A DNA stretch of 32,000 bases, from the NCBI RefSeq assembly GCF_045862395.1, contig NZ_AP023087.1:4282450-4314449 (forward strand). Reading direction: 5' to 3'. The stretch is from Marinicellulosiphila megalodicopiae (GTDB taxonomy: Bacteria > Pseudomonadota > Gammaproteobacteria > Pseudomonadales > Natronospirillaceae). The notes beneath the pieces were generated by a model. That model had not been told where the DNA came from and searched no databases. It worked only from the letters and a program-made list of their open reading frames with translations. The position numbers were made by a program, and so were the translations under genes. Of this stretch, positions 7,942-24,115 are shown piece after piece (within the stretch, counting starts at the first letter, position 1; the number at the start of each line of letters is the position of its first letter).

Positions 7942-8679
7942 TTAAATATGAAATTCTTTAAAAGTTTGAGCCAATTTATTTGGATGCTCCTCTAATAAAG
8001 TAAACATTGCCTTTGCAAAATCATCAGGATAGATATCTAACTGGCCCTGATTTATGCCTTCAAATGTATTTATAGCCACACTTTGCCTTGTTGCTTTTGG
8101 CATTTGCTCACCAGGGGCTAAACGGGTATCTGTAGGTCCAGGATACACACAAACTGCTTTTATATTATCTCCAGCTAGTTCTATTCTTAATCCTTGTGTT
8201 AAAGACATCAACGCAGCTTTAGTCGCACTGTAAGGCCCTAATGATGGGAAGTTACTTAAGGCGGCAATGGACGCAATATTAATAATAAACGCTTGCTTAG
8301 ACTGTTTGAGCAGTGGTAAACATTGATGAATTATTTTAAGCGGCCCAAAATAATGGGTGTCCATTTCTAACTTAGCTATTTCAACTGCATTTGGGGCAGT
8401 ATTAAAACAACCATTTGCTATACCTGCATTATTAATTAGCACATCTAAAGATTCGATCTTTTGAGTTAGACTTTGGATATCGCTATCATCAAGCACATCT
8501 AATTTAATAGCTTTGATTATTTCTGGATTAAGTGCAACTACTTCCTCTAATGCATTTTTATCACGCCCGGCCGCATAAATTGTACTTGCCCCGTTTGCCA
8601 ATAATGCTTCTATAAACCCCAAACCTATCCCGCGATTTGCCCCAGTCACCAATACCGACTTACCTTTTAAATTAAACAT
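7942..8679 (-). CDS. Short-chain dehydrogenase/reductase family oxidoreductase (245 aa)
   Basis: TGANRGIG, NNAG, S..(12)..YSATK motifs. Confidence 0.95.
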   Translation of the reverse strand: MFNLKGKSVLVTGANRGIGLGFIEALLANGASTIYAAGRDKNALEEVVALNPEIIKAIKLDVLDDSDIQSLTQKIESLDVLINNAGIANGCFNTAPNAVEIAKLEMDTHYFGPLKIIHQCLPLLKQSKQAFIINIASIAALSNFPSLGPYSATKAALMSLTQGLRIELAGDNIKAVCVYPGPTDTRLAPGEQMPKATRQSVAINTFEGINQGQLDIYPDDFAKAMFTLLEEHPNKLAQTFKEFHI

Positions 8680-8859: not shown

Positions 8860-9765
8860 ATGGATCAGAAGCAGTTATTCCCAATGATGAATGCATTTAT
8901 TGCAGTTGCTACGATTGGCAGTTTTTCTCAAGCAGCCAAGCAACTCGGTTCATCGCAACCTTCTATATCTCGATTAGTTAATGATTTAGAAGCACATTTA
9001 GGTGTGCGCTTATTGCAACGTAGCACCCGAAAGTTAAGCCTTACTGAAGCTGGTACTATTTATTTTGAAAAGGCCCATAAAATTCAACAGGATATTCTAG
9101 ATGCCCAGCAATCGGTCAACGCATTTAAACAAACCCCTTCGGGACTATTAAGAATAGGTGCACCATTGCATTGGATTGATTTAATGATTGCCCCCTATTT
9201 GGCCGAATTTTTACAGCGCTATACTCAAATCAAACTTGAAATCATTGCAACGGATCAGCATCAAGATATTGTACAAGACAGCCTTGACGTGGTTTTGCGT
9301 GTCGGCGATCCTAAACATTCAACCTATATTGCTGTTGCCATTAAACCTGTAAAGCTTACATTGTGCGCAAGTGCCAAATACCTTAATAGATTCGGCACAC
9401 CCAAGAGCATCACTGAGCTGACTCAACACAATTGCTTAATTTATAATAAGTTAAATGAATGGCAATCATTAACAAACAACCAATTAACTCAAATAAAAGC
9501 ACAGGGTAATTTAGATTCAAATTTAGTCACTGTTTTAATTTCATCTGCGATACAGGGTATGGGAGTCACGCTATTGCCAAACCTACTTTTAAAATCATAT
9601 TTTGATTCAAATGAATTAATTGAAGTACTTCCAAATGAAAATTGGTCAATTAAACACGCAACGGTAGAAAACGTTTACGCTTTATATTCCGATCGAAATC
9701 ACCTTGCGGCCAAAACCCGTGCATTTATTGATTTTTTTAAACAAAAAATTCAAGATGATTTTTAG
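8860..9765 (+). CDS. LysR family transcriptional regulator (301 aa)
   Basis: N-terminal HTH FIAVATIGSFSQAAKQLGSSQPSISRLVNDLEAHLGVRLLQRSTRKLSLTEAG; divergent from the SDR gene. Confidence 0.95.
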   Translation: MDQKQLFPMMNAFIAVATIGSFSQAAKQLGSSQPSISRLVNDLEAHLGVRLLQRSTRKLSLTEAGTIYFEKAHKIQQDILDAQQSVNAFKQTPSGLLRIGAPLHWIDLMIAPYLAEFLQRYTQIKLEIIATDQHQDIVQDSLDVVLRVGDPKHSTYIAVAIKPVKLTLCASAKYLNRFGTPKSITELTQHNCLIYNKLNEWQSLTNNQLTQIKAQGNLDSNLVTVLISSAIQGMGVTLLPNLLLKSYFDSNELIEVLPNENWSIKHATVENVYALYSDRNHLAAKTRAFIDFFKQKIQDDF

Positions 9766-11024: not shown

Positions 11025-11600
11025 TTATGGCCAATTACGAATAATAATTTCCTCTATTATTAAATTGGCTGATTGTTGTTTATATGTAGCCCTAATTTTA
11101 TCTTTAAGTTTATGTTTTGCTTGCAGATAGTATAATGAGTCTGCTTGTAATAATTGTTTTTGTAATTCATCCAACTGGTTATTCACGCTTTTTTTAGCCT
11201 CATCAAACATTCTTGCGTTTCGTTCATCGTTGGTTGCATCTAATTGTTTTTGTTCAATTAAGGTTGCCTCATGTTTGGTTAGCATTATCTCAGGTGCGTC
11301 CAAATAAATTGTATTGTTTTTATATTCGCTATTAAAATTCCAATCTTTTGCATCAACTGACATTTCAAACTCTAAACTCCATTTGTATTGAACAATGCCT
11401 TTTCCAAGGCCCAGCCCTTTAGTATCTTTAATCGTGTCATTAAATAAAATATCAAATTCAATCAGGTTAAGCGTTTGAATTTGATTAATAGTGTTTGGAT
11501 CAAAATATTTTGAACTGACTTGTTTGGGAATATTTGCACCGATGATCATGCCGATTTCAATAATTAAAATTAAAAATACAACTTTCAAAAAATTATTCAT
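11025..11600 (-). CDS. Hypothetical membrane-anchored protein (191 aa), end of the diheme/P450 cluster; DUF4230-like at low confidence
   Basis: ORF track; N-terminal hydrophobic anchor FLKVVFLILIIEIGMIIG; overlaps the upstream gene by 8 bp. Confidence 0.6.
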   Translation of the reverse strand: MNNFLKVVFLILIIEIGMIIGANIPKQVSSKYFDPNTINQIQTLNLIEFDILFNDTIKDTKGLGLGKGIVQYKWSLEFEMSVDAKDWNFNSEYKNNTIYLDAPEIMLTKHEATLIEQKQLDATNDERNARMFDEAKKSVNNQLDELQKQLLQADSLYYLQAKHKLKDKIRATYKQQSANLIIEEIIIRNWP

Positions 11601-12240
11601 GATCGTGATCCTTTGCTTCTAAACCTTGCTCTGTATCTTGAAGGCTTTGCTCATCTTTAGTGAATCGTTTTACTACAAAATACACAATGGTCGATACAAT
11701 CATTACCGCCACAACATACGAAGTTAATATTTCAAATGCAGACACTGTAAAATTCAAACCTTTTGAAGCACCTAATAAAACAGGAAAACCCCAAGACACT
11801 AATGACACAGACCCAATTAATGTCATGATTATTTTTTGCTTATGGGTAATTGAATAGAATAATGTTTTCCCTTCATTATTATTTAATATCGGCAAAATAA
11901 ATCGATGCAATAAATAGCCATTAAATGACAACACAACCACAATGCTCACCTTTGACCACACTTTTGGATTTAGGACATTTTCAGGTTCAAAAATAGAATA
12001 ATGAATGATAAACCCAAGACCCGTTACCCATAAGATACACAAACCAATCGTGACTAGATTTGTTAAAAAATGCACCAATTTTAATTTTTCACTGCTTATC
12101 GGTTCAAATTGCAAAAATCGGATAATGATTAAATCGGATATCCAAGCACCACCCGCTCCAAAAGCCAGCCCAATAAAATGAAAAATAATTAATAATGTTT
12201 TGATATCTAATGCTTCGAAAATATTCACTGTATTAACCAC
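11593..12240 (-). CDS. Integral membrane protein (215 aa), probably four or five transmembrane helices
   Basis: LLIIFHFIGLAFGAGGAW, NLVTIGLCILWVTGLGFII, VSIVVVLSFNGYLLHRF, IMTLIGSVSLVSWGFPVLLG, YVVAVMIVSTIVYFVV. Confidence 0.7.
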   Translation of the reverse strand: MVNTVNIFEALDIKTLLIIFHFIGLAFGAGGAWISDLIIIRFLQFEPISSEKLKLVHFLTNLVTIGLCILWVTGLGFIIHYSIFEPENVLNPKVWSKVSIVVVLSFNGYLLHRFILPILNNNEGKTLFYSITHKQKIIMTLIGSVSLVSWGFPVLLGASKGLNFTVSAFEILTSYVVAVMIVSTIVYFVVKRFTKDEQSLQDTEQGLEAKDHDHE

Positions 12241-12466
12241 TGTTAAACGATAATAATCTCAATACTACGCAATCACTTAAAAATTACCAGAGCAAGTTTG
12301 TTGCTATTTTATTGAATTTTGACGAGTTTCAAATTGACATCATTCTTTCAGGCATAAAAAAACGGATTAAGATCACTCTTAACCCGTCATTTAAAAATAA
12401 AATCCTTTTATTGCTTTCTCACCTTAAAGAAACTGTTTGACTCATTAAATAAATCAGGCGCTTATT

Positions 12467-14302
12467 CTACAACGTTTTTAGATACTCAAGCAATGCCCAA
12501 ACACTTTGTTTATCATCACTCCAATCTAATTTATAAGTTTTACCATCTAAAGTAATGTCTTTATCATGTCCTGCATTACTAATTGATGGAGAACTTTGGG
12601 TATCAAATACATACCCTTCTTGTTCATCCCAATTATCCAATTCCCACTTAAACCCTACTAATTGAGTGTCGAAATCTAATTGGCTTTTTACAAATACATC
12701 AGGACGCTCATTTGGCACTAGCATATGATAAAGCGTAGGCACTGAACCATTATGCAAATAAGGCGCTTGCGCCCAAAGCCCAGGAAACGGCAATGCGTTA
12801 TATCCATTTTGCACTCTTGGTGGCAACATGACCTGTTTACTTTGCCCAACTAACGAAACCCCTTTATATTCTGCACAAGGCTGAACTTGCTTTCCTTCCA
12901 TTTCAATGGTGGTAGTTGGAGAACAATTTGCGTCACCTGCAAAACTTGCTTGCGCGCCGACTGTAATCACAGTGCCTGCCACTTTTGCACGCCCCATATC
13001 AGTTCCCATAATCGAATATACACGACCATTATTTGGTTGATGACAATCCGCACAGTTATCTTTGAATAATTGCTGTCCTGTTTTTGCTAGATCCACATCA
13101 ACGTCAAATGGATAAATAGCAGGTGGTAGTTTTTGCAATACTTTTTCAGCATGGGCTGAAACACTGATATCAATATTATCAAATCCTAGTGTAATTTGAG
13201 CAGCAATGTTTTTATACATTGGTAACGGGATATGACCATTCCATTGACCGCCACCATTTATTAATCGTGTTTCATCTTCATTCCAAACTGGATCGTGAGA
13301 GTCTTGATCCCATACAACCATTATGTCTGTCACACCATGACTGGCTGGCATAACTAATGGTGCAATTAACTTAGTTGTCATCTTTTCATCAAAGGTTTGA
13401 AATGCTGTGGCCGCATTAAACCCAATGGCATCTTCCATGCCGGCGAATCCAGAATTAATTCTATCTTTAATATTTGGATACAGTTTTTCGGTTAATGTCA
13501 CCCAACTTGCATACACGTTTTCTTGGTGTGTCACAAATTCAGCGATAATATCTGTCGCATCATTTTTAAATAATTGAATTTGAGCTGCCTCATAATTTGC
13601 ATCAAATACTCTTCCGTCGTATTGATAATTATTGTAAAAATAATTTGGATCTTGAGCCTCTACTTTATCTAGCGCGGTTAAAAATGCATCCACTACTAAT
13701 TGTTTTTTGGCAGACTCGTCAGTTTCATTGCCATAAATTTTATTTAAAGATTGGACAATACGCTCCCGATAACCAATCACGTTAAATTCAGAATTGATAC
13801 CGCCATCTAAATATTCAAACTCACCACTTGGTAATCTAACTCGACCAATATGACACCCTCCACAGGTAAACGAGGCGTAATCAATATCTGCAGTTAAATC
13901 TTTTCTCACTAAACCAGTAAAGCCAATTCCACGTGGAAATGGATACCCTACTAAGCGCTCATCATGAAACAATCCCATAACCGATAAAAAATTATCTTCA
14001 TCACCCCAATATTCAGGTGCAACTTCAGGCAATAATTTTAAGACAATCAAGGGAATACCATTGGTTTCGCTCACTGGAAAGTTTGCAAAATGATCATAGT
14101 TTACTTGGAATGTATCAATATGATCGGCAATATCCGCACGACGCTTTGCTTGAGCAAGCACCCAATCTTTAGGTACTGGTTTTACATAAGTGGATTTAGG
14201 TGCTTCTAACCGACTATCAAATAAACCACTTACTTTACCGTAAGCGAGTAATCCAATAATAGGCAATACAACAGCCGAAATTTTAAACAGAGGGTGATTC
14301 AT
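12467..14302 (-). CDS. Diheme c-type cytochrome (611 aa), RoxA/MauG-like superfamily, paralog A
   Basis: Two CxxCH motifs (FTCGGCHIGR, DNCADCHQPNNG); C-terminal GLWAQAPYLHNGSVPTLYHML...ALLEYLKTL; single N-terminal hydrophobic anchor. Confidence 0.85.
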   Translation of the reverse strand: MNHPLFKISAVVLPIIGLLAYGKVSGLFDSRLEAPKSTYVKPVPKDWVLAQAKRRADIADHIDTFQVNYDHFANFPVSETNGIPLIVLKLLPEVAPEYWGDEDNFLSVMGLFHDERLVGYPFPRGIGFTGLVRKDLTADIDYASFTCGGCHIGRVRLPSGEFEYLDGGINSEFNVIGYRERIVQSLNKIYGNETDESAKKQLVVDAFLTALDKVEAQDPNYFYNNYQYDGRVFDANYEAAQIQLFKNDATDIIAEFVTHQENVYASWVTLTEKLYPNIKDRINSGFAGMEDAIGFNAATAFQTFDEKMTTKLIAPLVMPASHGVTDIMVVWDQDSHDPVWNEDETRLINGGGQWNGHIPLPMYKNIAAQITLGFDNIDISVSAHAEKVLQKLPPAIYPFDVDVDLAKTGQQLFKDNCADCHQPNNGRVYSIMGTDMGRAKVAGTVITVGAQASFAGDANCSPTTTIEMEGKQVQPCAEYKGVSLVGQSKQVMLPPRVQNGYNALPFPGLWAQAPYLHNGSVPTLYHMLVPNERPDVFVKSQLDFDTQLVGFKWELDNWDEQEGYVFDTQSSPSISNAGHDKDITLDGKTYKLDWSDDKQSVWALLEYLKTL

Positions 14303-14312
14303 AATTTATACC

Positions 14313-16136
14313 TTAAAGTGTTTTTAAATATTCAATAATAGCCATTGCACCTGGCTTATCATCGGACCAATTTAATTTGTATTCAATACCATTTTCATTC
14401 ACATCTTGGTCGTGACCTTTATTTGAAAATGTTTCAAAACTTTTTGTATCAAAAACATAACTATGCTCTGCTGATACGGTTTGATGATTGTCTTGTACCC
14501 ACTGATAGCCTAAATATGTTTGATCATAGGTTAACTGACTTTTGATAAACGTAGTTGGTCGCTCATTAGGCACTAATAAATGATAAATAGTTGGCACCGA
14601 TCCGTTATGTAAATATGGAGCTTGAGCCCAAATTCCACTTAATGGTCTTGCGTTATAACCATGATGTTGATTATTAGGTGACATAATTAAATCTTCTTTT
14701 CCTTCTAAAGACACGCCACCAAATTGCGCACAGGGTTTCACTTGTTCACCATATAACTCAACCTTTGTTTGAGTAGAACATTCTTTAAAAAAACCACTGA
14801 TGCCGCCTTTTCTAATTAATGTATTTACAACATAACTACGGTCAAGATTCACACCAAGGTTACTATAAACCTTACCGTTAAATGGTTGATGACATTGCGC
14901 ACAGTTGTCTGCAAATAATGCTTCGCCTTTTTTAGCAAGTTCAACATTCACATCAAATGGATACACAGACGCAGGAAGTTTATCCAATAATTCGACAGAA
15001 AATGCAGACACTCTTAAATCATTATCATCTAAGCCAATTGTTAACTGTGCCGCCATATTACGATACATAGGAATAGGGATATTACCATTGTATTGCCCGC
15101 CACCATTAATTAACGTTTGATGAGAATTATCCCAATGCGCTTTTCTTTCATCTTGGCGCCATACAGTCATAAAATCCGTTATACCTGGAGAGCTCGGTAA
15201 AATGTGTTTGGAAAATAATTTTCCAAAAAAAGTCGAATGGGCATCATTATATGAATTAACTGTAAATATTCCGGTTGCATCTGCCATGCCGGGAAACCCT
15301 TCTAAAGAACGTGTCTGGAATCCCTTGTAATTTTTATCTAGTAACGCAGCATAACCGGTATAATCTTGCGTGGTAGTTTTATAAAAATCACCAATTAACG
15401 ATCCAGATTTCTCAATAAAAAGTTTAATTTGATTTTTTTCATATGCCAAATCAAAGTTAACTACATCATTTTTATATTCATTATAAAAGTAACTATCACT
15501 TACGGATATTGCTTTTTCAAGTGCTGTTAAAAATGCATTTTCTAGTAATTGTTGCTGTTTAATCGGATCAGATTCATCTCCTATTATTTTTTGAAGGGTT
15601 TGATAAGTTTTCACTCGATAAGCAACAATATTAAATTCAGTATTCACGCCGCCATCAATATAATGAATTTTATTATTTTGATCTATCACGCGCCCAATAT
15701 GACAAGCGCCACAAGTAAAGGATGTATAATCTATTTTGCCCATAGGCTCAATTCTAGCTAAGCCACTTATTCCTATACCACGAGCTATTGGATAATTTTC
15801 CTGCCTTGTATCTTTAAATAACCCTACGACATCTAAAAAGTTTTCTTCACTGCCCCATAATTCTGGTGCAATAATAGGTAATAATTTTAAAATAATGAAA
15901 GGTGTTCCATCTGTTTGGCTAAAAGCATAATCGGCAAACCAATCAAATGCTTCTTGATTATCTGCAATATATGATTCTTTTTGCTGTATTTTTTGTTGCT
16001 GAAATTCAGACCAATTTTGTGTAACAGGTATTACAAATGGTTTACCTGTTGGGGATGCTAATTGTTTTGTGGGAATTGCTTTATATATTGTGATGCCTAC
16101 CAATAAAAACATGGCAATTAATAATATTTTTTTCAT
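14313..16136 (-). CDS. Diheme c-type cytochrome (607 aa), close paralog of the 611-aa protein
   Basis: FTCGACHIGR, DNCAQCHQPFNG, GIWAQAPYLHNGSVPTIYHLL...AIIEYLKTL; 10 bp from the next gene. Confidence 0.85.
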   Translation of the reverse strand: MKKILLIAMFLLVGITIYKAIPTKQLASPTGKPFVIPVTQNWSEFQQQKIQQKESYIADNQEAFDWFADYAFSQTDGTPFIILKLLPIIAPELWGSEENFLDVVGLFKDTRQENYPIARGIGISGLARIEPMGKIDYTSFTCGACHIGRVIDQNNKIHYIDGGVNTEFNIVAYRVKTYQTLQKIIGDESDPIKQQQLLENAFLTALEKAISVSDSYFYNEYKNDVVNFDLAYEKNQIKLFIEKSGSLIGDFYKTTTQDYTGYAALLDKNYKGFQTRSLEGFPGMADATGIFTVNSYNDAHSTFFGKLFSKHILPSSPGITDFMTVWRQDERKAHWDNSHQTLINGGGQYNGNIPIPMYRNMAAQLTIGLDDNDLRVSAFSVELLDKLPASVYPFDVNVELAKKGEALFADNCAQCHQPFNGKVYSNLGVNLDRSYVVNTLIRKGGISGFFKECSTQTKVELYGEQVKPCAQFGGVSLEGKEDLIMSPNNQHHGYNARPLSGIWAQAPYLHNGSVPTIYHLLVPNERPTTFIKSQLTYDQTYLGYQWVQDNHQTVSAEHSYVFDTKSFETFSNKGHDQDVNENGIEYKLNWSDDKPGAMAIIEYLKTL

Positions 16137-16168
16137 TTTATTTTTCTTATCGTTATTATTAAATAAAA

Positions 16169-16190
16169 AAGCCTCTCATAAGAAAGGCTT
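16169..16190 (-). terminator. Intra-cluster terminator or attenuator after the P450 gene
   Basis: Reverse strand AAGCCTTTCTTATGAGAGGCTTTTTTATTT: stem plus T-tract between 16203 and 16136. Confidence 0.65.
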
Positions 16191-16202
16191 AATAGGGTTA
16201 TC

Positions 16203-17534
16203 CTATTTCCATTTTAATTTGTAATCTTCTGGGAAAGGCCCATCTTTATAATCCATCTCAGATGCAGATTGAATATCTTTTCGCATTAAAACCTGCTTTA
16301 CCATTTCAGGAATCATTGCCATTCCTATGTATTTACCCACACAGTCGTGAGATGCAAATCCATAGTTAAAATTATGATACCAATTACGATTTGCATTAAA
16401 TTCTTCAGGATTTTCATAAGAATAATCATCAAACATTGCAGACTGAGTTAACGTTAAAACATTGGTTCCTGATGGAATTTTTGTTTCACGATCCGTGCCT
16501 TTTGCTATGGTGTAATCCATTGATGTTTGACGAAATAGATATGGGCTAATCGGTACAAATCGTAAAGCCTCCCAGACCATCGCATCAATTTTATCTGTAT
16601 TAGAATCAAGAGATGCCGCTTTGGCTTGTTCAAATAATTCAGGACGTTCAATAAAAAAGTTAATCACTTGCGCAACGGCTTGTGAGGTAGTTTCTACGGC
16701 ACCAATTAATAAGCCACCAGCGTTTGTACCAATACGCGTTAATGGAAAATCAACTTGAGGAGCGAATGAGCTACGCAACATACGTTTTACAATATCATCT
16801 TTAAATTCATATGCTGGCTTTTTAGCGATGGCTCTAAATATATTTAAAACTTGTACAGCACGACCCAATAACCGATCTTTGATTTGTACCGTTAGAATTT
16901 TACGAATCATTAACACAGTAACATAATCGACTAATTCTTTAGAACACTGTGCATGAATGTCTACAATTTCATCAAATCGCTCTTTAGAATTTAAGTCAAA
17001 TGGCTGATTATGGAATGTATTATATTGATTCCAATATGACCATTTTAATAATTTTTTACGACTAATTCCGTCCAAACCAAAATATTCTTGAACTAATATC
17101 GCAGGAACCATACGACAATATTCATTTACAATTTCAATTTCTCCGTCGGCATCATCCAAAATTTTCTTAGATGAATCACGAATTAATTTTCTAATTCTTG
17201 GAATATCTTCGCGATTTAACATACCTTGCATAATTGATTTTTCACGATAATGTAGCGCATCATCATCGTGTGCCATTAAATATCCAGGTTCAGTATCAGT
17301 GACACCCATCTTTGGTTTATATAACGCGTTGGTAAAAATCGTCGGCATTTGTAATGCATCACGAACATCTGTAAATAATGCAAGTAACGTACATTCAGGC
17401 GTCACCAATACTGGACGTTCCTCTCGTAACTGTTTAAAAAATGGAAGCGGTTCATCATGCATCCATTTTTTCACTAATGGAAATTTGTCCGCATCAGCAG
17501 CGGCATCAAATAACTCAAGATAATTTGTAGTCAT
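16203..17534 (-). CDS. Cytochrome P450 (443 aa) with variant heme-binding loop
   Basis: I-helix LLIGAVETTSQAV, EALR (ExxR), NPEEFNANR, Cys-ligand loop YGFASHDCVGKYIG. Confidence 0.85.
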   Translation of the reverse strand: MTTNYLELFDAAADADKFPLVKKWMHDEPLPFFKQLREERPVLVTPECTLLALFTDVRDALQMPTIFTNALYKPKMGVTDTEPGYLMAHDDDALHYREKSIMQGMLNREDIPRIRKLIRDSSKKILDDADGEIEIVNEYCRMVPAILVQEYFGLDGISRKKLLKWSYWNQYNTFHNQPFDLNSKERFDEIVDIHAQCSKELVDYVTVLMIRKILTVQIKDRLLGRAVQVLNIFRAIAKKPAYEFKDDIVKRMLRSSFAPQVDFPLTRIGTNAGGLLIGAVETTSQAVAQVINFFIERPELFEQAKAASLDSNTDKIDAMVWEALRFVPISPYLFRQTSMDYTIAKGTDRETKIPSGTNVLTLTQSAMFDDYSYENPEEFNANRNWYHNFNYGFASHDCVGKYIGMAMIPEMVKQVLMRKDIQSASEMDYKDGPFPEDYKLKWK

Positions 17535-17544
17535 GATTCACCCC

Positions 17545-19692
17545 TTATAATGTTTTCAAATATTCAATTAAATCCCAGCGCTCTTTTTCAGATAACGCAG
17601 GTAATACTTCACCATTGTTTTGAGCAGTTTTTCCAGCACCGTATTCGTGCCCTGTGTTCATGTCACCAACACGAGTGGTAATAAATGCACTGCCATCATA
17701 ATCTTTTGATTTAAATCCAACTCGATTAGCGTCAAACTCACGACTGCCAACTACAAATTCATCTGGTCGATATTCACCCTCAGCAGGATCAGTGTCTAGT
17801 TTTTTAGGTAATAATAAATCGTATAAAGTTGGAACCGAACCATTATGTAGATAAGGAGCAGTAGCCCAAATTCCATTTAAGGCACGACCTTTATAAGCCA
17901 ATAATGAACTGTATGGGTTAGAAGTTGTATCAGCAACATAATTACCTTTTTTAACGGTTTCTGGCATTTTATTTTCAAAAAATGAAGACCCCAAAACATA
18001 CAAACGATCTAACCAACGACGTATAAAGAACTTATCAGGGTCGGGTGTTGCAATCACTCCTTTTGTTGCAGAAGTTAATATTTGCAATACAGGTGCGTCC
18101 TCACTAATAAATACATCACCAACTCCTGTTATAGATTGAACAGTGTGCTGAAAATTACCAGATTTACCTGTTGCCATCACACCATTTATAGCAGCTGCTT
18201 TATCAGTACCGACTAAGTTTATATCCATCATATTTGCGATGATGATTCTGTCCGCATTATTTCGATCGACCACTTCGTGACATGATTGACAGTATTGAGC
18301 ATAAACTAGCTGTCCACGTTCTGCTTTAACTTGATCGATTTCACCTAATATTTCTTGTGGCCAAACTGGTGACTGCAAGCGTTTAAGTTGAGCTTCTAAA
18401 CGGCGTAAATTTGTGACATCGATTGAAGATTTAAAATTAACTACTTCGTTTTTATTTTTTTGATCGGTTATTAAAGTAGATAATTCAAATCCATTAGGCT
18501 CATGTGATGTCCAATCTAAAATGCCAAACACACCAATCACTTCTCCGGTATTACGACCAAGCGGCCCAACACCTGCATTATTTGCTACACCATTCCACTG
18601 AGTATAATCTGCCTGTCCTATATCCCATAAAAATGGATAGCTCACTGGAGCATTTGGTTCATTAAAAATACTATTACGTACTCGTAATAAATCACGTTGA
18701 TTTAAACCTGGGTATCCTGGTTCTGTAGATGCTAATCGATCAAGTACCAATCCAAACTGTTTATCCACAATAATATTTTCATTTACGCCTTCAAGTACTA
18801 AATCGATTTGATCACGAGTTAAAACTCTACGACGTTCGCCGTTAGTTCCTGGTGCCGTGACCATTTCCATGGTATTGGCCAACTGCTGTTTGTTAATCAT
18901 ATGCTGTAATACACGGTTATAAATTCGTCCAAATGCATCTAGGCGACCATAACCATAATCGATATGACTGTGGTTTACTGTATTGTATAAACTGATTGTT
19001 TTTAGCCATTGCTCAGTTGACTCAATAACTTTAGCTTCTTTTTTAAAGTCATTATTACGTGCTAAAACAGTTTCAACATAACGTGTTTTTTTAGCTTCAT
19101 CTGCTAACGTGGCACGCATTGATTTTTCAATTGCAGTTAAAAAGCCAACCATATCGGCCATTGCTGGACCGCCATCAATACGAATTGCCGATGTGATACC
19201 ATCTTTTGTGAAATTAACTTGGTTAGTATGACAAGCAGCACAGGTGTAACCGATGTAGTCATTTCCCTGATATGTATCTTTAACTAAACCTACTGGTAAA
19301 CCATCTGGGTTTAAGAATGTTTCTTTTTGCGGTAAATACCGATACTTATCAATATTGTGGTTGTCACGTAACAATTTATTTGAATTTTCTTGCTCTAATG
19401 ACATAAATAAATCATATGGCATTAATGCTGAACCTTGAGTGGTATTATAAAACCAAAGGCTTTCTGCTTCTGTCCAACCTTGATCTAAATATACAGGGGT
19501 TGTAAAACTTTCCCCAAATTCACCATTTTCAAGTGCAATTGCACCTCGGTCGGGATCATCATCCCAGTTTTGGTAGGTTTTACCTGCAATTAATGCGATC
19601 ACCATTAATAAAATAATGACACCAACAATGCGCCCTGAGTATTTCAATAGGTAAAAAATTGCTGCGAAAATGGATTGGAAAAATGTAGCCAT
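17545..19692 (-). CDS. Diheme c-type cytochrome (715 aa), RoxA (rubber oxygenase)-like
   Basis: YTCAACHTNQVNF, QYCQSCHEVVDR, ESLWFYNTTQGSALMPYDLFMSLEQ, GIWATAPYLHNGSVPTLYDLLLP, LIEYLKTL; N-terminal transmembrane segment. Confidence 0.8.
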   Translation of the reverse strand: MATFFQSIFAAIFYLLKYSGRIVGVIILLMVIALIAGKTYQNWDDDPDRGAIALENGEFGESFTTPVYLDQGWTEAESLWFYNTTQGSALMPYDLFMSLEQENSNKLLRDNHNIDKYRYLPQKETFLNPDGLPVGLVKDTYQGNDYIGYTCAACHTNQVNFTKDGITSAIRIDGGPAMADMVGFLTAIEKSMRATLADEAKKTRYVETVLARNNDFKKEAKVIESTEQWLKTISLYNTVNHSHIDYGYGRLDAFGRIYNRVLQHMINKQQLANTMEMVTAPGTNGERRRVLTRDQIDLVLEGVNENIIVDKQFGLVLDRLASTEPGYPGLNQRDLLRVRNSIFNEPNAPVSYPFLWDIGQADYTQWNGVANNAGVGPLGRNTGEVIGVFGILDWTSHEPNGFELSTLITDQKNKNEVVNFKSSIDVTNLRRLEAQLKRLQSPVWPQEILGEIDQVKAERGQLVYAQYCQSCHEVVDRNNADRIIIANMMDINLVGTDKAAAINGVMATGKSGNFQHTVQSITGVGDVFISEDAPVLQILTSATKGVIATPDPDKFFIRRWLDRLYVLGSSFFENKMPETVKKGNYVADTTSNPYSSLLAYKGRALNGIWATAPYLHNGSVPTLYDLLLPKKLDTDPAEGEYRPDEFVVGSREFDANRVGFKSKDYDGSAFITTRVGDMNTGHEYGAGKTAQNNGEVLPALSEKERWDLIEYLKTL

Positions 19693-20394
19693 ATCAATAT
19701 CCCTGTCATGCTTACCTGCACGAATTTATTGTTATTGTTTTAAGAAAGTCACTAGGTCTCGGACTTTGTTTGCGGTTCTACTGGCACCAGCGCTTTACTT
19801 TTACCAAGCAGATTAATAAATATACAAGCCGTATAATTATTTAGCTAAAATAACCGATTAGGCTTCTGAAATCTAGCACTTTTTGAATGGCGTTAAATAG
19901 AAAGGGGGATACTTAAAATCATTAATAAACTCAATCTATTCAGCTCAAATGTTGATCAAATATAAAGCATATAACAATTTAGTTACTTCATAGTTTTAAG
20001 ATCATATAATTTATCAACCACTGTAATCACCCGCATTAAATCATCCGTTTTAAACTCTATATATAGATAAGTATCCACATATCGTAATGTTTTGAAATTA
20101 ATTCCATTACTCACTCTACTTTGATAGTAATCAAATAACAGGATAACAGGCCTTTATTTTTAAATTTCATTCATGTGTAAACTTCAATTATTTCTAAATT
20201 TTCATTACCTATCCAAAAAAATATATGCAATTAATACATTCTCCTAATATCTTAAAATGCTTGATTGAGCTAAAAGATACAAAACTTTATTAGAATAAAG
20301 TGCATTAAATGATTGTTTCATATTAGAACCACAACTAACTAAATTCAAAAAAGCTCAATTGTGGATATCTGTTTTTACAAACATACAAATAAAA

Positions 20395-20606
20395 GTGACC
20401 AACAAAATATTCAACATCGGACGCGACGGATTTGATGCAGGTCAAGATGCGTTTTCTTTTGGTATTAGTGCAAAACAATATGTGTCGATGGCACTTGTTT
20501 AAAAGCAACAACTACTCGTGATTTGACGGACATAGTTGGATTAGGTTGTTTGATTAAACTGGAAGGTGGCGGACGCAATGTTCGGTATCAGTTAAGTTTG
20601 GATTAG
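20395..20606 (+). pseudogene. Remnant of the C-terminal region of a Fic-family protein, frameshifted
   Basis: Manual translation: NIGRDGFDAGQDAFSFGISAKQYVSMALV* then, in another frame, KATTTRDLTDIVGLGCLIKLEGGGRNVRYQLSLD*, resembling the winged-helix tail of DUF4172/Fic proteins. Confidence 0.6.
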
Positions 20607-21034
20607 GTTTGATTTGGTTTAGTGGATTTGATTTAGTAAATAAAGTTTTATTAGAAAAGTATTGTGAAGCAAGCGATTTGACCTAGAATCGAATCTCTTT
20701 TTTGTAGGTCGTATGCTTTCACACAGGGATGTGTGCAAGGGGCGTGAGCATGCTTAAAGGGATTTAAGTAGTAGAGCAATGTCTGGAACTAATTGCCGAG
20801 AACGCGGTAGCTTTGCTGCGAAAAACTAATCAGGGTTTTTGAGTGTCCATACCACACTAGTGACCCAAGCCCGAGCAGGTTTGTTTTGCGGATTTTAGAT
20901 GACAGATGGGCGCGCGACCCTTTGGCTCTTAATTATATAATGTATAATGGCGTTTATGAAAACAGCTAACTTATATTTTTATGTAATATGTTTTAAATGC
21001 ATATTGCATTACCACACCAAAATAAGAATTAATA

Positions 21035-21711
21035 ATGAGTAAGAAAAAAGATAAAAACGCCCGAAAAAAATAGTTCAAAAAAAAGCACTAAAACAAAAAA
21101 ATAAATCCATTTCGTTTCAAGCAAGTCAGGCTGTAAAAGAGAAAACAGCCGTTGAAAAATTAAATTACCGCATCACCGAGGATCCATTTTCAGTATCAAC
21201 GAAACAAACACTACCCGAAGAAATAGAAAAAAGGAAACAATATCTTTTTGATAACTTAGAAGAGCGCCCAGAAGATTTAATAGAAGAGCTCGAACTTTTA
21301 GTGACTCAATATCCTCAAAATAATATCCTCTCGAACTTTCTTTCTAATGCCTATCTATTAACTAAACAAATGGAAAAACATGAAGCATTATCAGAAAAGA
21401 CTTTTTCAGAGTGTCCAGAATACCTATATGGACGTGTTCATTGGGCAAAAATATTAATGGATCGCAACGATTACAAACAAGCCAATGAAGTATTTAACAA
21501 TACATGGGATTTAAAGAAACTGTACCCACAACGTAAAGTATTTCACATAACAGAGGTACTAGCATTTTATAGTACAGCTATTACCTACCATGAAAATATG
21601 CAAGAAGAGAGTGAATTTTTATTTGCCTTTGATGTATTAAGAGAGCTTGATGTTGAAGAAGATATATTATTACAATATTCCCCATCAGTTATGAAATGGC
21701 GTTTTCTTTGA
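21035..21711 (+). CDS. TPR-like protein (~225 aa) interrupted near its start by an A7-run frameshift; the ORF track shows only 21301..21711
   Basis: ATG at 21035 reads MSKKKDKNARKK* ; the -1 frame after CGAAAAAAATAG continues IVQKKALKQKNKSISFQASQAVKEK...LEERPEDLIEELELLVTQYPQNN... without a stop into the 136-aa ORF. Confidence 0.6.
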
Positions 21712-21948: not shown

Positions 21949-22089
21949 CGGCAAGTAGGTAATCGACCCGGAAGAATAGAGCCAAGAGCGATTAAACGAA
22001 GGCCAAAACCTTATAAATTATTGACCGTTACACGCGAAGTTGCAAGAGAGGATATTAGAAGAAATGGCCACCCAAAGAAACAGAAATAG
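21949..22089 (+). pseudogene. C-terminal remnant of an IS4-family-like transposase
   Basis: Manual translation RQVGNRPGRIEPRAIKRRPKPYKLLTVTREVAREDIRRNGHPKKQK*. Confidence 0.75.
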
Positions 22090-22188
22090 TACTTTATTAA
22101 AAGACTTTATCTCTTAACTTAGTGCCATTCAACTCTGACCCTCTTGATTTTTTTACTCATTCATAGCGAAATATCAGAATTCAATAGT

Positions 22189-23907: not shown

Positions 23908-24115
23908 CTTGCACCTCCAATTTACCGATTATGTACAAATAATTTATACAATGTATTATTGTTTCAATGCTTATCTTTTTTGGGTAAGTTTTTAATAGCT
24001 CTGAATGAATACAATCAACAGTGAAATCTTTATGCTTTGCCAAATCTATAATGTATGAAGAAATACAAAATAAAGAATCTATTGGCTGTATGGATTTATT
24101 TGGAAGTATCATCAA
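23882..24115 (-). CDS. Small ABC-3C middle-component-like protein (77 aa; true start may be the second Met)
   Basis: MILPNKSIQPIDSLFCISSYIIDL...CINYLYIIGKLEV; overlaps both neighbours (26 bp and 20 bp), consistent with a middle component. Confidence 0.7.
   Translation of the reverse strand: MMILPNKSIQPIDSLFCISSYIIDLAKHKDFTVDCIHSELLKTYPKKISIETIIHCINYLYIIGKLEVQDEIIKIKF

What the first reader, a model, noticed from the sequence alone, without database searches (positions are those of the whole stretch)
11025..19692. Candidate novel oxygenase operon: three RoxA-like diheme proteins plus a P450
Six minus-strand genes are nearly contiguous: 715-aa diheme protein, P450 (10-bp gap), 607-aa diheme, 611-aa diheme (10-bp gap), 4-5 TM protein, and anchored 191-aa protein (8-bp overlap). 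All three diheme proteins have two CxxCH sites, an N-terminal membrane anchor, the common G(I/L)WAxAPYLHNGSVPTxYxxL block and an identical ending, EYLKTL. The 715-aa member looks closest to rubber oxygenase RoxA/RoxB, which cleaves isoprenoid C=C bonds with two c-type hemes. Co-occurrence with a P450, without ferredoxin or reductase, suggests periplasmic oxidative attack on a hydrophobic polyene, terpenoid or fatty-acid substrate coupled to intracellular P450 chemistry. I know of no described pathway with this composition.
Basis: partly seen in the sequence, partly recalled or inferred. Interest (0 to 1): 0.8.

Follow-up and report, generated by a model that had tools for sequence, protein, structure and literature searches.

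The report
Conserved dihaem oxygenase–P450 gene pair
This marine bacterium carries an uncharacterised but very widely conserved gene pair, a periplasmic RoxA-like two-haem enzyme plus a new kind of cytochrome P450 (here with two extra two-haem paralogues), and its relatives' gene neighbourhoods suggest it oxygenates unsaturated fatty acids or other lipids.

Summary
The window is from Marinicellulosiphila megalodicopiae.

The conserved unit is smaller than six genes. The core is the 715-aa dihaem protein (NCBIfam NF040606) plus the P450, 10 bp apart. The 607- and 611-aa paralogues are accessory. The last two genes are never found with the others.

In a metagenome scan anchored on the P450, 47 of 47 informative loci had a RoxA-like dihaem gene next to it. 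No other neighbour was conserved. Identities of the two proteins co-vary (r = 0.89).

The dihaem proteins are not canonical cytochrome c peroxidases or MauG. RoxA is their only solved relative, but it is remote, and they fail the RoxA/B/C family cut-offs.

On alphaproteobacterial plasmids, distant homologues of the dihaem genes and of the P450 lie beside COX-like haem dioxygenases, mini-catalases, patatin-like phospholipases and an oleate hydratase.

My best reading (confidence about 0.45) is a bacterial fatty-acid/oxylipin-type oxygenation module. It resembles Pseudomonas aeruginosa oleate-diol synthase and the eukaryotic pairing of a dioxygenase with a P450 companion. It is probably not polyisoprene cleavage. 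No biochemistry exists for it.

The parts
17545..19692 (-). D715: a 715-aa membrane-anchored periplasmic dihaem c-type protein of NCBIfam NF040606 ('di-heme-cytochrome C peroxidase'). It is the core partner of the P450.
   Evidence: It scores 573.6 bits on NF040606 against a cut-off of 150 and hits PF21419. It is 100% identical to a M. megalodicopiae protein, and more than 5000 homologues exist. It sits directly upstream of the P450 in 41 of 47 P450-anchored loci. The AF2 model has pLDDT 83.
19228..19242 (-). D715 haem-1 attachment site, CAACH (C151-H155).
   Evidence: The site is invariant in 82 orthologues.
18277..18291 (-). D715 haem-2 attachment site, CQSCH (C468-H472).
17836..17856 (-). 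D715 'MauG motif', PYLHNGS (P613-S619). This is the motif RoxA and RoxB also carry.
   Evidence: and Table 1 of PMC6311187.
16203..17534 (-). A 443-aa cytochrome P450 of an unassigned family with no signal peptide, so it is inferred to be cytoplasmic. It starts 10 bp after the D715 stop codon and has its own GGGGTGA ribosome-binding site.
   Evidence: PF00067 scores 51.5 bits. No NCBIfam P450 model comes near its cut-off. The best PDB hit is YjiB at only 55 bits. The junction sequence is shown. E281/T282, E322/R325 and C398 are invariant in 64 of 64 orthologues.
16683..16703 (-). P450 I-helix GAVETTS (G278-S284), carrying the acid-alcohol pair E281-T282.
16341..16343 (-). Codon for the P450 proximal haem ligand, Cys398.
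16169..16190 (-). Terminator-like hairpin in the 66-bp spacer between the P450 and D607. It could be an internal attenuator. It is not conserved in related four-gene loci.
   Evidence: It is absent from the sense strand in L001, L019 and L010.
14313..16136 (-). D607: a 607-aa periplasmic RoxA-like dihaem paralogue and an accessory member of the cluster.
   Evidence: PF21419 scores 71 bits. NF040606 scores 127 bits, below the cut-off of 150. The AF2 model has pLDDT 88, and its only significant Foldseek PDB hit is RoxA 4b2n (E 4e-6, TM 0.44). It is present in only 4 of the D715-P450 loci examined.
12467..14302 (-). D611: a 611-aa periplasmic RoxA-like dihaem paralogue, 45.6% identical to D607. 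This type sits directly downstream of the P450 in genomes that lack D715.
   Evidence: The order P450-D611 without D715 occurs in L099, L100, L103, L104, L107, L109, L113 and L160.
12361..12388 (-). Terminator-like hairpin 80 bp after the D611 stop codon. It probably marks the end of the conserved unit.
11025..12240 (-). Two overlapping genes for small membrane proteins (215 aa with five TM segments, and 191 aa with an anchor). They are adjacent to the module but not part of it.
   Evidence: Neither has a Pfam, NCBIfam or PADLOC family. Neither gives a tblastn hit in any related locus.

Best explanation
The locus encodes a lipid-oxygenation module that spans the inner membrane. D715 is anchored in the inner membrane with its two c-type haems in the periplasm. 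It is proposed to use O2, or a lipid hydroperoxide, to oxygenate a C=C-containing lipid, most likely an unsaturated fatty acid released from phospholipid. The two characterised branches of large RoxA-like dihaem enzymes do chemistry of this kind: RoxA/RoxB, and the Pseudomonas aeruginosa 10S-dioxygenase/7,10-diol synthase pair PA2077/PA2078. The lipophilic product would cross the membrane and be further oxidised or rearranged by the co-translated cytoplasmic P450. This would be the bacterial counterpart of the 'dioxygenase plus P450 companion' logic seen in COX with PGIS/TXAS, in fungal DOX-CYP fusions and in plant LOX with CYP74. D607 and D611 are a tandem paralogue pair, 45.6% identical. They would add further periplasmic oxygenation or hydroperoxide-isomerisation steps, as PA2077 and PA2078 do.

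What is shown: gene structure, haem motifs, family assignments, the near-obligate adjacency of the P450 to a dihaem gene, and the recurrent neighbourhoods. What is inferred: the topology, from signal and anchor sequences and from the fact that c-type haem is attached in the periplasm. The substrate class, the reaction and the order of steps are also inferred.
For: (1) Family. All three proteins carry PF21419. RoxA is the only solved relative by phmmer, by family profile (E about 5e-10) and by Foldseek for D607. They share RoxA's C-terminal ...ERWxLIEY(I/L)KTL ending.

(2) Functional coupling. In the P450-anchored metagenome scan, 41 of the 47 loci with at least 2.3 kb upstream have a D715-type gene directly upstream, and the other 6 have a D611-type gene directly downstream. 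No other gene family is shared by more than 7 of 106 loci. Pairwise identities of D715 and the P450 correlate at r = 0.89, against a permutation maximum of 0.12. The pair persists at 25-36% and 30-32% identity on Methylobacterium and Bradyrhizobium plasmids.

(3) Swaps among the neighbouring haem enzymes. The nearest plasmid relatives of this P450 that lack a dihaem neighbour are instead joined to an animal-haem-peroxidase-family protein whose best PDB hits are COX-2 (E 5e-53). This occurs in Sinorhizobium medicae, Rhizobium etli and R. gallicum. In Paracoccus yeei and on pNGR234a, a D607-like gene is followed by a catalase-related protein and, in P. yeei, by a homologue of that COX-like protein. 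In Oceaniserpentilla, the slot between D715 and D607 holds a second D715-like gene and a lipoprotein mini-catalase instead of the P450.

(4) Lipid neighbours. Patatin-like phospholipases lie beside the dihaem genes in NGR234, R. leguminosarum, M. radiotolerans and R. etli IE4803. A Zn phospholipase C follows the P450 in six metagenome loci. A bona fide oleate hydratase (881 bits against a cut-off of 567) lies 3 kb upstream in B. barranii. fabA-fabB lie directly downstream in Oceaniserpentilla.

(5) Precedent. PA2077/PA2078 are periplasmic tandem dihaem paralogues (43% identical) with the same PY(F/L)HNGSVP motif, and they oxygenate oleate (PMC4496055). Dioxygenases with P450 companions are reviewed in PMC13049297.
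Against: No biochemical or genetic data exist for any member of these families. The similarity to RoxA is confined to about 40 residues plus the C-terminus. The D715 model has no significant structural match. I could not compare the proteins directly with PA2077/PA2078 because their sequences were not obtainable, and the spacing of haem and motif residues differs (178 aa against 94 aa between the haem-2 His and the motif His).

The P450 keeps the acid-alcohol pair in 64 of 64 orthologues. That is typical of reductase-dependent monooxygenases and atypical of CYP74, PGIS or TXAS. The P450 is cytoplasmic while the dihaem enzymes are periplasmic, so an intermediate must cross the membrane.

The lipid-related neighbours come from distant homologues (25-36% identity) on alphaproteobacterial plasmids. 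In the less selective sample of six further dihaem plasmid loci, only one has an annotated phospholipase neighbour and none a second haem enzyme; the rest show proteases, IS elements or nothing informative. Many D715 orthologues in Cellvibrionaceae lack the P450 altogether and sit beside a beta-lactamase-family gene and an Rce1-like protease.
Confidence: 0.45

Rival explanations
1. This is the first reader's reading: isoprenoid or polyene cleavage. The dihaem enzymes would cleave C=C bonds of a polyisoprenoid (rubber-like polyprenol, carotenoid, squalene or a quinone tail) as RoxA and RoxB do. The P450 would then hydroxylate the resulting oligo-isoprenoid aldehydes or ketones after uptake.
For: RoxA is the only solved structure with significant similarity. 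The MauG motif is the exact RoxB variant, PYLHNGSVP (PMC6311187 Table 1). The substrate is hydrophobic, which is compatible with the membrane-tethered location.
Against: The RoxA, RoxB and RoxC equivalog models score 40-48 bits against cut-offs of 900-1000. RoxA and RoxB are secreted, whereas these proteins are anchored or lipoproteins. No isoprenoid, carotenoid or rubber-catabolic gene appears in any of about 180 neighbourhoods. The recurrent neighbours are phospholipases, an oleate hydratase, COX-like dioxygenases and mini-catalases. The host is a deep-sea cellulolytic bacterium (PMC11966569).
Confidence: 0.12
2. This is the reading implied by the NCBI name: a peroxidase or detoxification function. 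D715, D607 and D611 would be periplasmic peroxidases that reduce H2O2 or membrane-lipid hydroperoxides with electrons from the respiratory chain. The P450 would act independently or repair oxidised lipid on the cytoplasmic side.
For: NCBIfam NF040606 is named 'di-heme-cytochrome C peroxidase'. The proteins have two c-type haems and the MauG/CCP-like motif. Catalase-related proteins recur as neighbours. The genes sit in housekeeping-type contexts in many Gammaproteobacteria.
Against: There is no PF03150 (CCP_MauG) hit at E <= 0.1. No CCP or MauG structure is found even with family profiles at E <= 10. The proteins are twice the size of bacterial CCPs. A pure H2O2 scavenger gives no reason for the near-obligate adjacency and co-variation with a P450. 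The name comes from a subfamily model and not from an experiment.
Confidence: 0.15
3. This is a MauG/MbnH-like protein-modifying function. The dihaem enzymes would oxidise residues of a periplasmic protein substrate through a bis-Fe(IV)-type intermediate, and the P450 link would be indirect.
For: The MauG motif is present. The D715 profile gives a marginal hit to the MbnH structure 6e1c (E 0.11). MbnH family TIGR04039 scores E 0.0018.
Against: Both hits are far below any threshold. No conserved candidate substrate protein is encoded next to the genes in 106 loci. The partner that is conserved is a cytoplasmic P450, which cannot meet a periplasmic protein substrate.
Confidence: 0.05
4. On this reading the two genes are neighbours without a shared pathway. 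The adjacency would be inherited synteny, and the dihaem proteins would be electron-transfer cytochromes.
For: D715 occurs without the P450 in most of the 80 best genome hits (only 20 of them have it), for example in Cellvibrio, Marinimicrobium and Colwellia. A Bacteroidota P450 orthologue at 64% identity has no dihaem neighbour.
Against: The flanking genes differ completely among loci while the pair stays together at spacings of 10-130 bp. This holds across P450 identities of 51-79% and across marine, soil and sludge samples, and again on alphaproteobacterial plasmids at about 30% identity. D715 invariant residues cluster around haem 1, far beyond what an electron carrier needs.
Confidence: 0.08

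Closest known systems
Rubber oxygenases RoxA/RoxB (Steroidobacter cummioxidans; PDB 4B2N)
   Same: They are large (over 60 kDa) monomer-sized dihaem c-type proteins with two CxxCH sites, the PY(F/L/M)HNGSVP 'MauG motif' and the C-terminal ...LIEY(I/L)KTL ending. They share Pfam PF21419. RoxA is the only significant PDB relative by sequence, by profile and, for D607, by fold.
   Different: Similarity is limited to about 40 residues plus the C-terminus. Scores on the RoxA/B/C models are 40-48 bits against cut-offs of 900-1000. Foldseek gives TM 0.44 and 14% identity for D607 and no hit for D715. The window proteins are anchored or lipoprotein-type rather than secreted. They pair with a P450, which RoxA and RoxB do not. 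No rubber- or isoprenoid-related genes lie nearby.
Pseudomonas aeruginosa oleate-diol synthase PA2077 (10S-dioxygenase) and PA2078 (7,10-diol synthase), the 'FadCcp' subfamily (PMC4496055)
   Same: They are periplasmic tandem dihaem paralogues of about 620-634 aa, 43% identical to each other (D607 and D611: 607 and 611 aa, 45.6%). They have two CxxCH sites, PY(F/L)HNGSVP and a C-terminal Leu, were modelled on RoxA, and act on an unsaturated fatty acid.
   Different: I could not make a direct sequence comparison. The spacing between the haem-2 His and the motif His is 178 aa in PA2077 and 94 aa in D607. The P. aeruginosa operon has no P450 and no D715-type member. Its LysR regulator OdsR is adjacent, whereas the window's LysR gene (8860-9765) pairs divergently with an SDR gene instead.
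Fatty-acid dioxygenases with P450 companions: COX with PGIS/TXAS, fungal DOX-CYP fusions (LDS, AOS, EAS), plant LOX with CYP74 (PMC13049297)
   Same: A haem dioxygenase gene is coupled to a P450 gene. Rhizobial relatives of the window's P450 (28-30% identity, full length) are directly joined to COX-like animal-haem-peroxidase genes.
   Different: The dioxygenase partner here has an unrelated dihaem c-type fold and sits in a different compartment. The P450 retains the acid-alcohol pair, unlike CYP74, CYP8A or CYP5A. It is not in the CYP74 clan: there is no Cys-loop insertion and no CYP74 structure among the PDB hits.
Catalase-related allene oxide synthase/hydroperoxide lyase fused to lipoxygenase (coral cAOS-LOX; PMC5617202)
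   Same: A small catalase-related haemoprotein sits next to a fatty-acid oxygenase. Mini-catalases follow D607-like genes in P. yeei and NGR234 and replace the P450 slot in Oceaniserpentilla.
   Different: The window itself has no mini-catalase. Only one of the four mini-catalases has the Thr-His distal pair, which I recall from memory as typical of hydroperoxide-reacting catalase relatives.
Canonical bacterial dihaem cytochrome c peroxidases and MauG/MbnH/BthA (PF03150)
   Same: They have two c-type haems and a related PYxHxGS motif region, and they are periplasmic.
   Different: They are half the size. There is no PF03150 hit and no hit to a CCP or MauG structure. The NCBI product name 'di-heme-cytochrome C peroxidase' is therefore only a family label.

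Membership tests
NCBIfam NF040606 'di-heme-cytochrome C peroxidase' subfamily | Whole-protein HMM score at or above the curated cut-off of 150 bits. | tested here: met
   D715 scores 573.6 bits over model positions 1-524 of 524. D607 and D611 score 126.8 and 121.6 bits on the C-terminal part only, so those two do not meet the cut-off.
RoxA/RoxB/RoxC rubber dioxygenases (NF050033, NF050034, NF051462) | Full-length similarity reaching the equivalog cut-offs of 900-1000 bits. | tested here: not met
   All three proteins score 39.6-48.0 bits, matching only about 35-65 residues around the motif.
RoxA/RoxB/RoxC rubber dioxygenases | Two CxxCH haem sites plus the MauG motif PY(F/L/M)HNGSVP (PMC6311187 Table 1). 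| tested here: met
   Each protein has two CxxCH sites and PYLHNGSVP.
RoxA/RoxB/RoxC rubber dioxygenases | RoxA fold (PDB 4B2N). | tested here: inconclusive
RoxA/RoxB/RoxC rubber dioxygenases | A distal-pocket Phe (the F317 equivalent) stabilising haem-bound O2, and an open distal site at haem 1. | not testable with these tools
   Neither the full RoxA sequence nor model coordinates were accessible. HMMER aligned only RoxA residues 168-221, 331-369, 497-539 and 642-662.
RoxA/RoxB/RoxC rubber dioxygenases | The second axial His of haem 2 lies about 21 residues from the C-terminus (H641 of 662). | tested here: inconclusive
   At that spacing D715 has G694 and D607 has Y586. An invariant GH(E/D) His lies 32-33 residues from the end (H682, H575, H579) and may be the ligand.
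RoxA/RoxB/RoxC rubber dioxygenases | A secreted, soluble extracellular enzyme. | tested here: inconclusive
   D715 has a conserved N-terminal hydrophobic helix that is predicted helical over residues 2-41 with no obvious cleavage site. D607 orthologues mostly carry a lipobox LxAC. No signal-peptide predictor was available.
FadCcp (P. aeruginosa PA2077/PA2078 fatty-acid dihaem enzymes) | Direct sequence or phylogenetic grouping with Q9I238 and Q9I237. | not testable with these tools
   The sequences could not be fetched.
FadCcp (P. aeruginosa PA2077/PA2078 fatty-acid dihaem enzymes) | The descriptive features in PMC4496055 Table 1: two CxxCH sites, PYFHNGSVP-type motif, tandem paralogues about 43% identical, export signal, C-terminal Leu. 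| tested here: met
   D607 and D611 each have two CxxCH sites, PYLHNGSVP, hydrophobic N-termini and a C-terminal Leu, and are 45.6% identical. However, the motif spacing differs (94 aa against 178 aa).
Canonical bacterial CCP/MauG (Pfam PF03150) | A match to the CCP_MauG domain or to CCP/MauG structures. | tested here: not met
   There is no PF03150 hit at E <= 0.1. No CCP or MauG chain is found with the family profiles at E <= 10; only MbnH 6e1c appears, at E 0.11.
Cytochrome P450 superfamily (PF00067) | Domain score above the cut-off, the Cys-ligand loop FxxGxHxCxG, the ExxR motif and the I-helix (A/G)GxETT. | tested here: met
   The domain scores 51.5 bits against 22.8. The Cys loop YGFASHDC398VG, E322xxR325 and GAVE281T282T are invariant or conservative in 64 orthologues.
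Named bacterial P450 families in NCBIfam (for example CYP119, cyclodipeptide-associated, CYP152) | A score reaching a family cut-off. | tested here: not met
   The best score is 59 bits against a cut-off of 500. The best PDB relative scores 55.6 bits.
Self-sufficient hydroperoxide-converting P450s (CYP74, CYP8A1, CYP5A1, most fungal DOX-fused CYPs) | Loss of the I-helix acid-alcohol pair, or an Asn or non-polar residue over the haem. | tested here: not met
   E281-T282-T283 is invariant in 64 of 64 orthologues and E-T is kept in the rhizobial COX-linked relatives. According to PMC13049297, some self-sufficient AOSs keep a Thr, so this lowers but does not exclude the mechanism.

The most novel reading that the evidence does not exclude
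The NF040606 dihaem protein and this P450 clade would form a previously unrecognised and very widespread bacterial oxylipin pathway, found in marine Gammaproteobacteria, soil bacteria and rhizobial plasmids. A periplasmic dihaem enzyme of the same broad class as P. aeruginosa 10S-dioxygenase would make a fatty-acid hydroperoxide, and a dedicated P450 would convert it to a diol, epoxy-alcohol or allene-oxide-type product. That product could serve as a signal or in envelope remodelling. In different lineages the same logic would be built with interchangeable parts (dihaem or COX-like dioxygenase; P450 or mini-catalase), mirroring eukaryotic eicosanoid and octadecanoid pathways and perhaps pre-dating them.
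Probability: 0.3. Interest if true: 0.8.

Novelty: new variant of a known kind. Interest (0 to 1): 0.62.

Why it matters
Bacterial oxylipin biosynthesis is known in detail essentially only from P. aeruginosa. Its dihaem diol synthase was described as almost without homologues (PMC4496055). This locus points to a much larger set of related dihaem enzymes: more than 5000 sequence clusters for D715 alone. It also gives them a specific, testable partner, a new P450 family that is nearly always encoded beside them.

If the module oxygenates fatty acids, it would supply new regio- and stereospecific oxygenases for hydroxy-fatty-acid production. It would identify candidate lipid signals in marine symbionts such as Endozoicomonas and Endobugula and in rhizobia. 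It would also provide a prokaryotic counterpart to the dioxygenase-plus-P450 architecture of eicosanoid pathways.

Even if the substrate proves different, the product name 'di-heme-cytochrome C peroxidase', and 'ribonuclease E' in some records, is probably misleading for thousands of genes.

Tried and rejected
(1) Hydroperoxide isomerase. I first thought the P450 was a CYP74- or PGIS-like self-sufficient hydroperoxide isomerase, which would explain the missing redox partners. I downgraded this because the acid-alcohol pair is invariant and no CYP74-type structure appears among the PDB hits.

(2) LysR regulator. I considered the LysR gene at 8860-9765 as an OdsR-like regulator. I rejected this: it lies 1.3 kb beyond the 3' end of the gene run, is divergent from an SDR gene (7942-8679), and no LysR gene is conserved in related loci.

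(3) The last two genes. I tested the 215-aa and 191-aa genes as part of the system and found no homologue in any related locus and no family hit.

(4) Bacteroidota neighbour. I tested the 548-aa T9SS-tail protein upstream of the Bacteroidota P450 as a cryptic D715 analogue. hhalign gave a probability of 0.1%.

(5) Internal terminator. The terminator-like hairpin between the P450 and D607 is not found in L001, L019 or L010.

(7) Literature. Searches for a described dihaem-plus-P450 system found nothing relevant. The T. oleivorans proteomics paper does not mention these genes.

(8) RNA elements. The Rfam and tRNA scans of the window were empty.

(9) Thr-His hallmark. This distal-pair hallmark of hydroperoxide-reacting mini-catalases is present in only one of four neighbouring mini-catalases, so I did not use it as evidence.

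Full report
WHAT IS THERE

The window comes from Marinicellulosiphila megalodicopiae, a deep-sea cellulolytic gammaproteobacterium. The 715-aa and P450 proteins are 100% identical to proteins of that species, which is described in PMC11966569.

- D715: 17545-19692
- P450: 16203-17534
- D607: 14313-16136
- D611: 12467-14302
- a 215-aa protein with five TM segments: 11593-12240
- an anchored 191-aa protein: 11025-11600

The junctions, in order, are a 10-bp gap, a 66-bp gap, a 10-bp gap, a 226-bp gap and an 8-bp overlap.

Each of the three large proteins has two CxxCH sites, the block G(I/L)WAxAPYLHNGSVPTxYxxL and the ending EYLKTL. Pfam assigns RoxA-like_Cyt-c (PF21419) to all three and p450 (PF00067) to the 443-aa protein. 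The sequence-level observation is confirmed.

FAMILY PLACEMENT

D715 is a full-length member of NCBIfam NF040606, 'di-heme-cytochrome C peroxidase' (573.6 bits against a cut-off of 150). D607 and D611 fall below that cut-off at 127 and 122 bits and match only its C-terminal part.

None of the three is a RoxA, RoxB or RoxC orthologue. They score 40-48 bits on models whose cut-offs are 900-1000.

They are not canonical cytochrome c peroxidases or MauG either. There is no PF03150 hit. With single sequences or with family profiles, RoxA (4b2n) is the only significant PDB match (E 1e-6 to 5e-10). It covers the motif region and the shared C-terminal '...ERWxLIEY(I/L)KTL'.

The AlphaFold2 models are confident: D607 has pLDDT 88 and pTM 0.89, and D715 has pLDDT 83 and pTM 0.86. 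Foldseek matches D607 to RoxA only (E 4e-6, TM 0.44, 14% identity). It matches D715 to nothing significant.

D607 and D611 are 45.6% identical. D715 is 24-26% identical to them over the C-terminal 300 residues, with hhalign probability 99.5%.

The P450 belongs to no named family. Its best NCBIfam score is 59 bits against a cut-off of 500, and its best PDB hit, YjiB, scores 55 bits. It has no signal peptide. It keeps every canonical motif, and the I-helix E281-T282, E322xxR325 and Cys398 are invariant in 64 of 64 orthologues.

WHAT THE CONSERVED UNIT IS

I ran two independent scans.

The first was anchored on D715 and searched one genome per GTDB species. It returned 80 loci. Twenty of them have the P450 directly downstream, mostly those with D715 at 62% identity or more: Algibacillus, Endobugula, Paraglaciecola, Thalassolituus, Zhongshania, Endozoicomonas and Neptuniibacter. 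Twenty-nine loci, from Cellvibrio, Marinimicrobium, Agarilytica and relatives, have a beta-lactamase-family gene there instead, often followed by an Rce1-like protease. The full four-gene order D715-P450-D607-D611 occurs in only a few uncultured gammaproteobacteria (L001, L002, L009, L019). D715-P450-D611 is more common (L006, L010, L023, L024).

The second scan was anchored on the P450 and searched metagenomes. It returned 80 loci with P450 identities of 51-79% from marine, soil, sludge and freshwater samples. Of the 47 loci with at least 2.3 kb of upstream sequence:
- 41 have a D715-type gene directly upstream
- the other 6 have a D611-type gene directly downstream
- so all 47 are adjacent to a RoxA-like dihaem gene.

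No other gene family is shared by more than 7 of 106 loci, and there is no ferredoxin or reductase among them. Pairwise identities of D715 and the P450 across 64 pairs correlate at r = 0.89, against a permutation maximum of 0.12.

The 215-aa and 191-aa genes have no counterpart in any related locus. They also follow a terminator-like hairpin at 12361-12388. A second hairpin, at 16169-16190, lies between the P450 and D607, but it is not conserved elsewhere.

The conserved core is therefore D715 plus the P450. The P450 has its own ribosome-binding site 10 bp after the D715 stop codon. D607 and D611 form an accessory paralogue pair, and the last two genes are bystanders.

Two exceptions show the limits of the association. 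Bacteroidota carry a 64%-identical P450 without any dihaem neighbour. Many D715 genes also stand without a P450.

CLUES TO FUNCTION FROM DISTANT RELATIVES

tblastn searches against 72,556 plasmids found homologues at 25-36% identity whose neighbourhoods are informative. Only nine plasmids carry a P450 related to the window's at E <= 1e-20.
- In four Methylobacterium plasmids the P450 lies next to an NF040606 dihaem gene. In the M. radiotolerans locus inspected (L172), a PAS/HTH regulator lies between them and a patatin-like phospholipase is divergent.
- In two Bradyrhizobium plasmids it lies next to an NF040606 dihaem gene. In the one inspected, pB323S2b, the dihaem gene is directly upstream of it and a bona fide oleate hydratase lies 3 kb upstream.
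- In Sinorhizobium medicae, Rhizobium etli and R. gallicum it is directly joined to an animal-haem-peroxidase-family gene whose best PDB matches are cyclooxygenase-2, at E 5e-53.

Other loci add to this picture.
- In Paracoccus yeei, a D607-like gene is followed by a catalase-related gene and by a homologue (43%) of that same COX-like protein.
- On pNGR234a, a disrupted D607-like gene, a catalase-related gene, an NF040606 gene and a patatin-like phospholipase lie in a row.
- In Oceaniserpentilla (L032), the position between D715 and D607 holds a second D715-like lipoprotein and a lipoprotein mini-catalase instead of the P450. fabA and fabB lie immediately downstream.
- A Zn-dependent phospholipase C follows the P450 in six metagenome loci.
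- Further patatin-like neighbours occur in R. leguminosarum and R. etli IE4803.

A less selective sample of six more dihaem plasmid loci gave one with phospholipases. The others showed proteases, IS elements or nothing informative. The signal is therefore recurrent but not universal.

MOST LIKELY MECHANISM

Both characterised branches of large RoxA-like dihaem enzymes oxygenate C=C bonds of hydrophobic substrates. RoxA and RoxB cleave polyisoprene (PMC6311187). P. aeruginosa PA2077 and PA2078 turn oleate into a 10S-hydroperoxide and then a 7,10-diol in the periplasm (PMC4496055).

The haem proteins that recur beside these genes are of the three kinds that elsewhere make or convert fatty-acid peroxides: P450s, mini-catalases and COX-like peroxidases (PMC13049297, PMC5617202). 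The non-haem neighbours release or modify fatty acids.

I therefore propose three steps. D715, anchored in the membrane with its haems in the periplasm, oxygenates an unsaturated fatty acid or a related lipid. The product crosses the membrane and the cytoplasmic P450 processes it. D607 and D611 supply additional periplasmic steps, by analogy with PA2077 and PA2078.

The gene structure, motifs, family placement, adjacency and neighbourhoods are shown. The topology, substrate and chemistry are inferred.

The invariant acid-alcohol pair suggests that the P450 is a conventional O2-activating monooxygenase with redox partners encoded elsewhere. Self-sufficient hydroperoxide chemistry is not excluded, because some such CYPs keep a Thr.

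My confidence is about 0.45. The rivals are:
- isoprenoid cleavage, 0.12
- H2O2 or lipid-hydroperoxide peroxidase, 0.15
- MauG-like protein modification, 0.05
- unrelated neighbours, 0.08.

NOVELTY

Five full-text searches found no paper describing a dihaem-plus-P450 system or any study of NF040606. Public product names are generic ('di-heme-cytochrome C peroxidase', 'cytochrome c') or wrong ('ribonuclease E').

The protein kinds are known, and the logic of a dioxygenase with a P450 companion is known from eukaryotes. What is new is this particular pairing, its breadth, and the apparent interchangeability of parts across bacteria. I rate it a new variant of a known kind, with interest about 0.6. 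It is a well-defined, testable and widespread uncharacterised module, but it rests entirely on comparative genomics.

LIMITS

Noticed in passing
window 22189-25109 (minus strand), within the low-GC stretch 22000-25000: A 572-aa DUF2326 protein matches the PADLOC candidate defence model PDC-M68B over its full length (214 bits). It lies next to a 337-aa SMEK-domain protein that hits the N-terminal part of an 'Aga_REase-PNTD' model. GC drops to 27-29% here, against about 35% nearby. This is probably a small anti-phage defence island.
   Followed up: partly
L032 9932-19269 (Oceaniserpentilla sp. 4NH20-0058): A variant cluster reads D715, then a second D715-like lipoprotein (698 aa), then a lipoprotein mini-catalase (380 aa, distal Thr-His), then D607. 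It has no P450 and is immediately followed by fabA-fabB. It looks like a non-orthologous replacement of the P450 by a catalase-related haemoprotein.
   Followed up: partly
L173 7956-10873; L174 6941-9843; L176 4959-7870 (Sinorhizobium medicae, Rhizobium etli and R. gallicum plasmids): P450 genes 28-30% identical to the window's P450 are joined, overlapping or 20 bp apart, to animal-haem-peroxidase genes whose best PDB hits are cyclooxygenase-2 (E 5e-53). I found no description of such bacterial COX-like plus P450 pairs in the literature searched.
   Followed up: partly
L025-L084 (Cellvibrio, Marinimicrobium, Agarilytica, Teredinibacter loci), about 160 bp and about 2 kb downstream of the D715 orthologue: Where the P450 is absent, D715 is followed in 29 loci by a beta-lactamase-family protein of about 560-650 aa with an N-terminal extension, and in 24 loci by an Rce1-like (CPBP) intramembrane protease. 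An Rce1-like gene also recurs downstream of the P450 in four soil-type loci. This association is unexplained.
   Followed up: partly
window 11025-12240: A 215-aa five-TM protein and a 191-aa anchored coiled-coil-like protein overlap by 8 bp. Neither matches any Pfam, NCBIfam or PADLOC family, and neither has a homologue in about 180 fetched loci. They are orphan membrane proteins of unknown role.
   Followed up: partly
window 19693-21300: A 1.6-kb stretch upstream of D715 has no ORF over 60 aa and no Rfam hit. It is unusually long for an intergenic region and probably holds the promoter and regulatory region, or a decayed gene.
   Followed up: no
alignment A5 (D607 family) compared with window 14313-16136: About 90% of D607 orthologues have a lipoprotein lipobox (LxAC, Cys at alignment position 21). 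The window's D607 and D611 both lack the Cys, so here they are probably soluble or anchored by a signal sequence rather than lipid-anchored.
   Followed up: no
protein hits P0008, P0043, P0049, P0112: Several public records annotate D715 orthologues as 'ribonuclease E' (Saccharobesus litoralis, Thalassolituus oleivorans, Candidatus Endobugula sertula and a Rhodospirillales MAG). This is an evident annotation error that has propagated in the databases.
   Followed up: no
L168 5411-6577; L172 6781-7920; L177 4308-5363; L178 4588-5769: A PAS/LuxR-type HTH regulator of about 350-390 aa lies next to the dihaem gene in four alphaproteobacterial plasmid loci (Paracoccus, Methylobacterium, Ruegeria, Rhizobium sp. 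WL3). It is a candidate ligand-responsive regulator of the system and is absent from the window.
   Followed up: no
window 4538-7348 and 29614-31554: A 936-aa secreted-type protein has four PKD domains and a GH16 catalytic domain, and there is also a GH3 beta-glucosidase-type enzyme. Both fit the polysaccharide-degrading lifestyle of the host.
   Followed up: no
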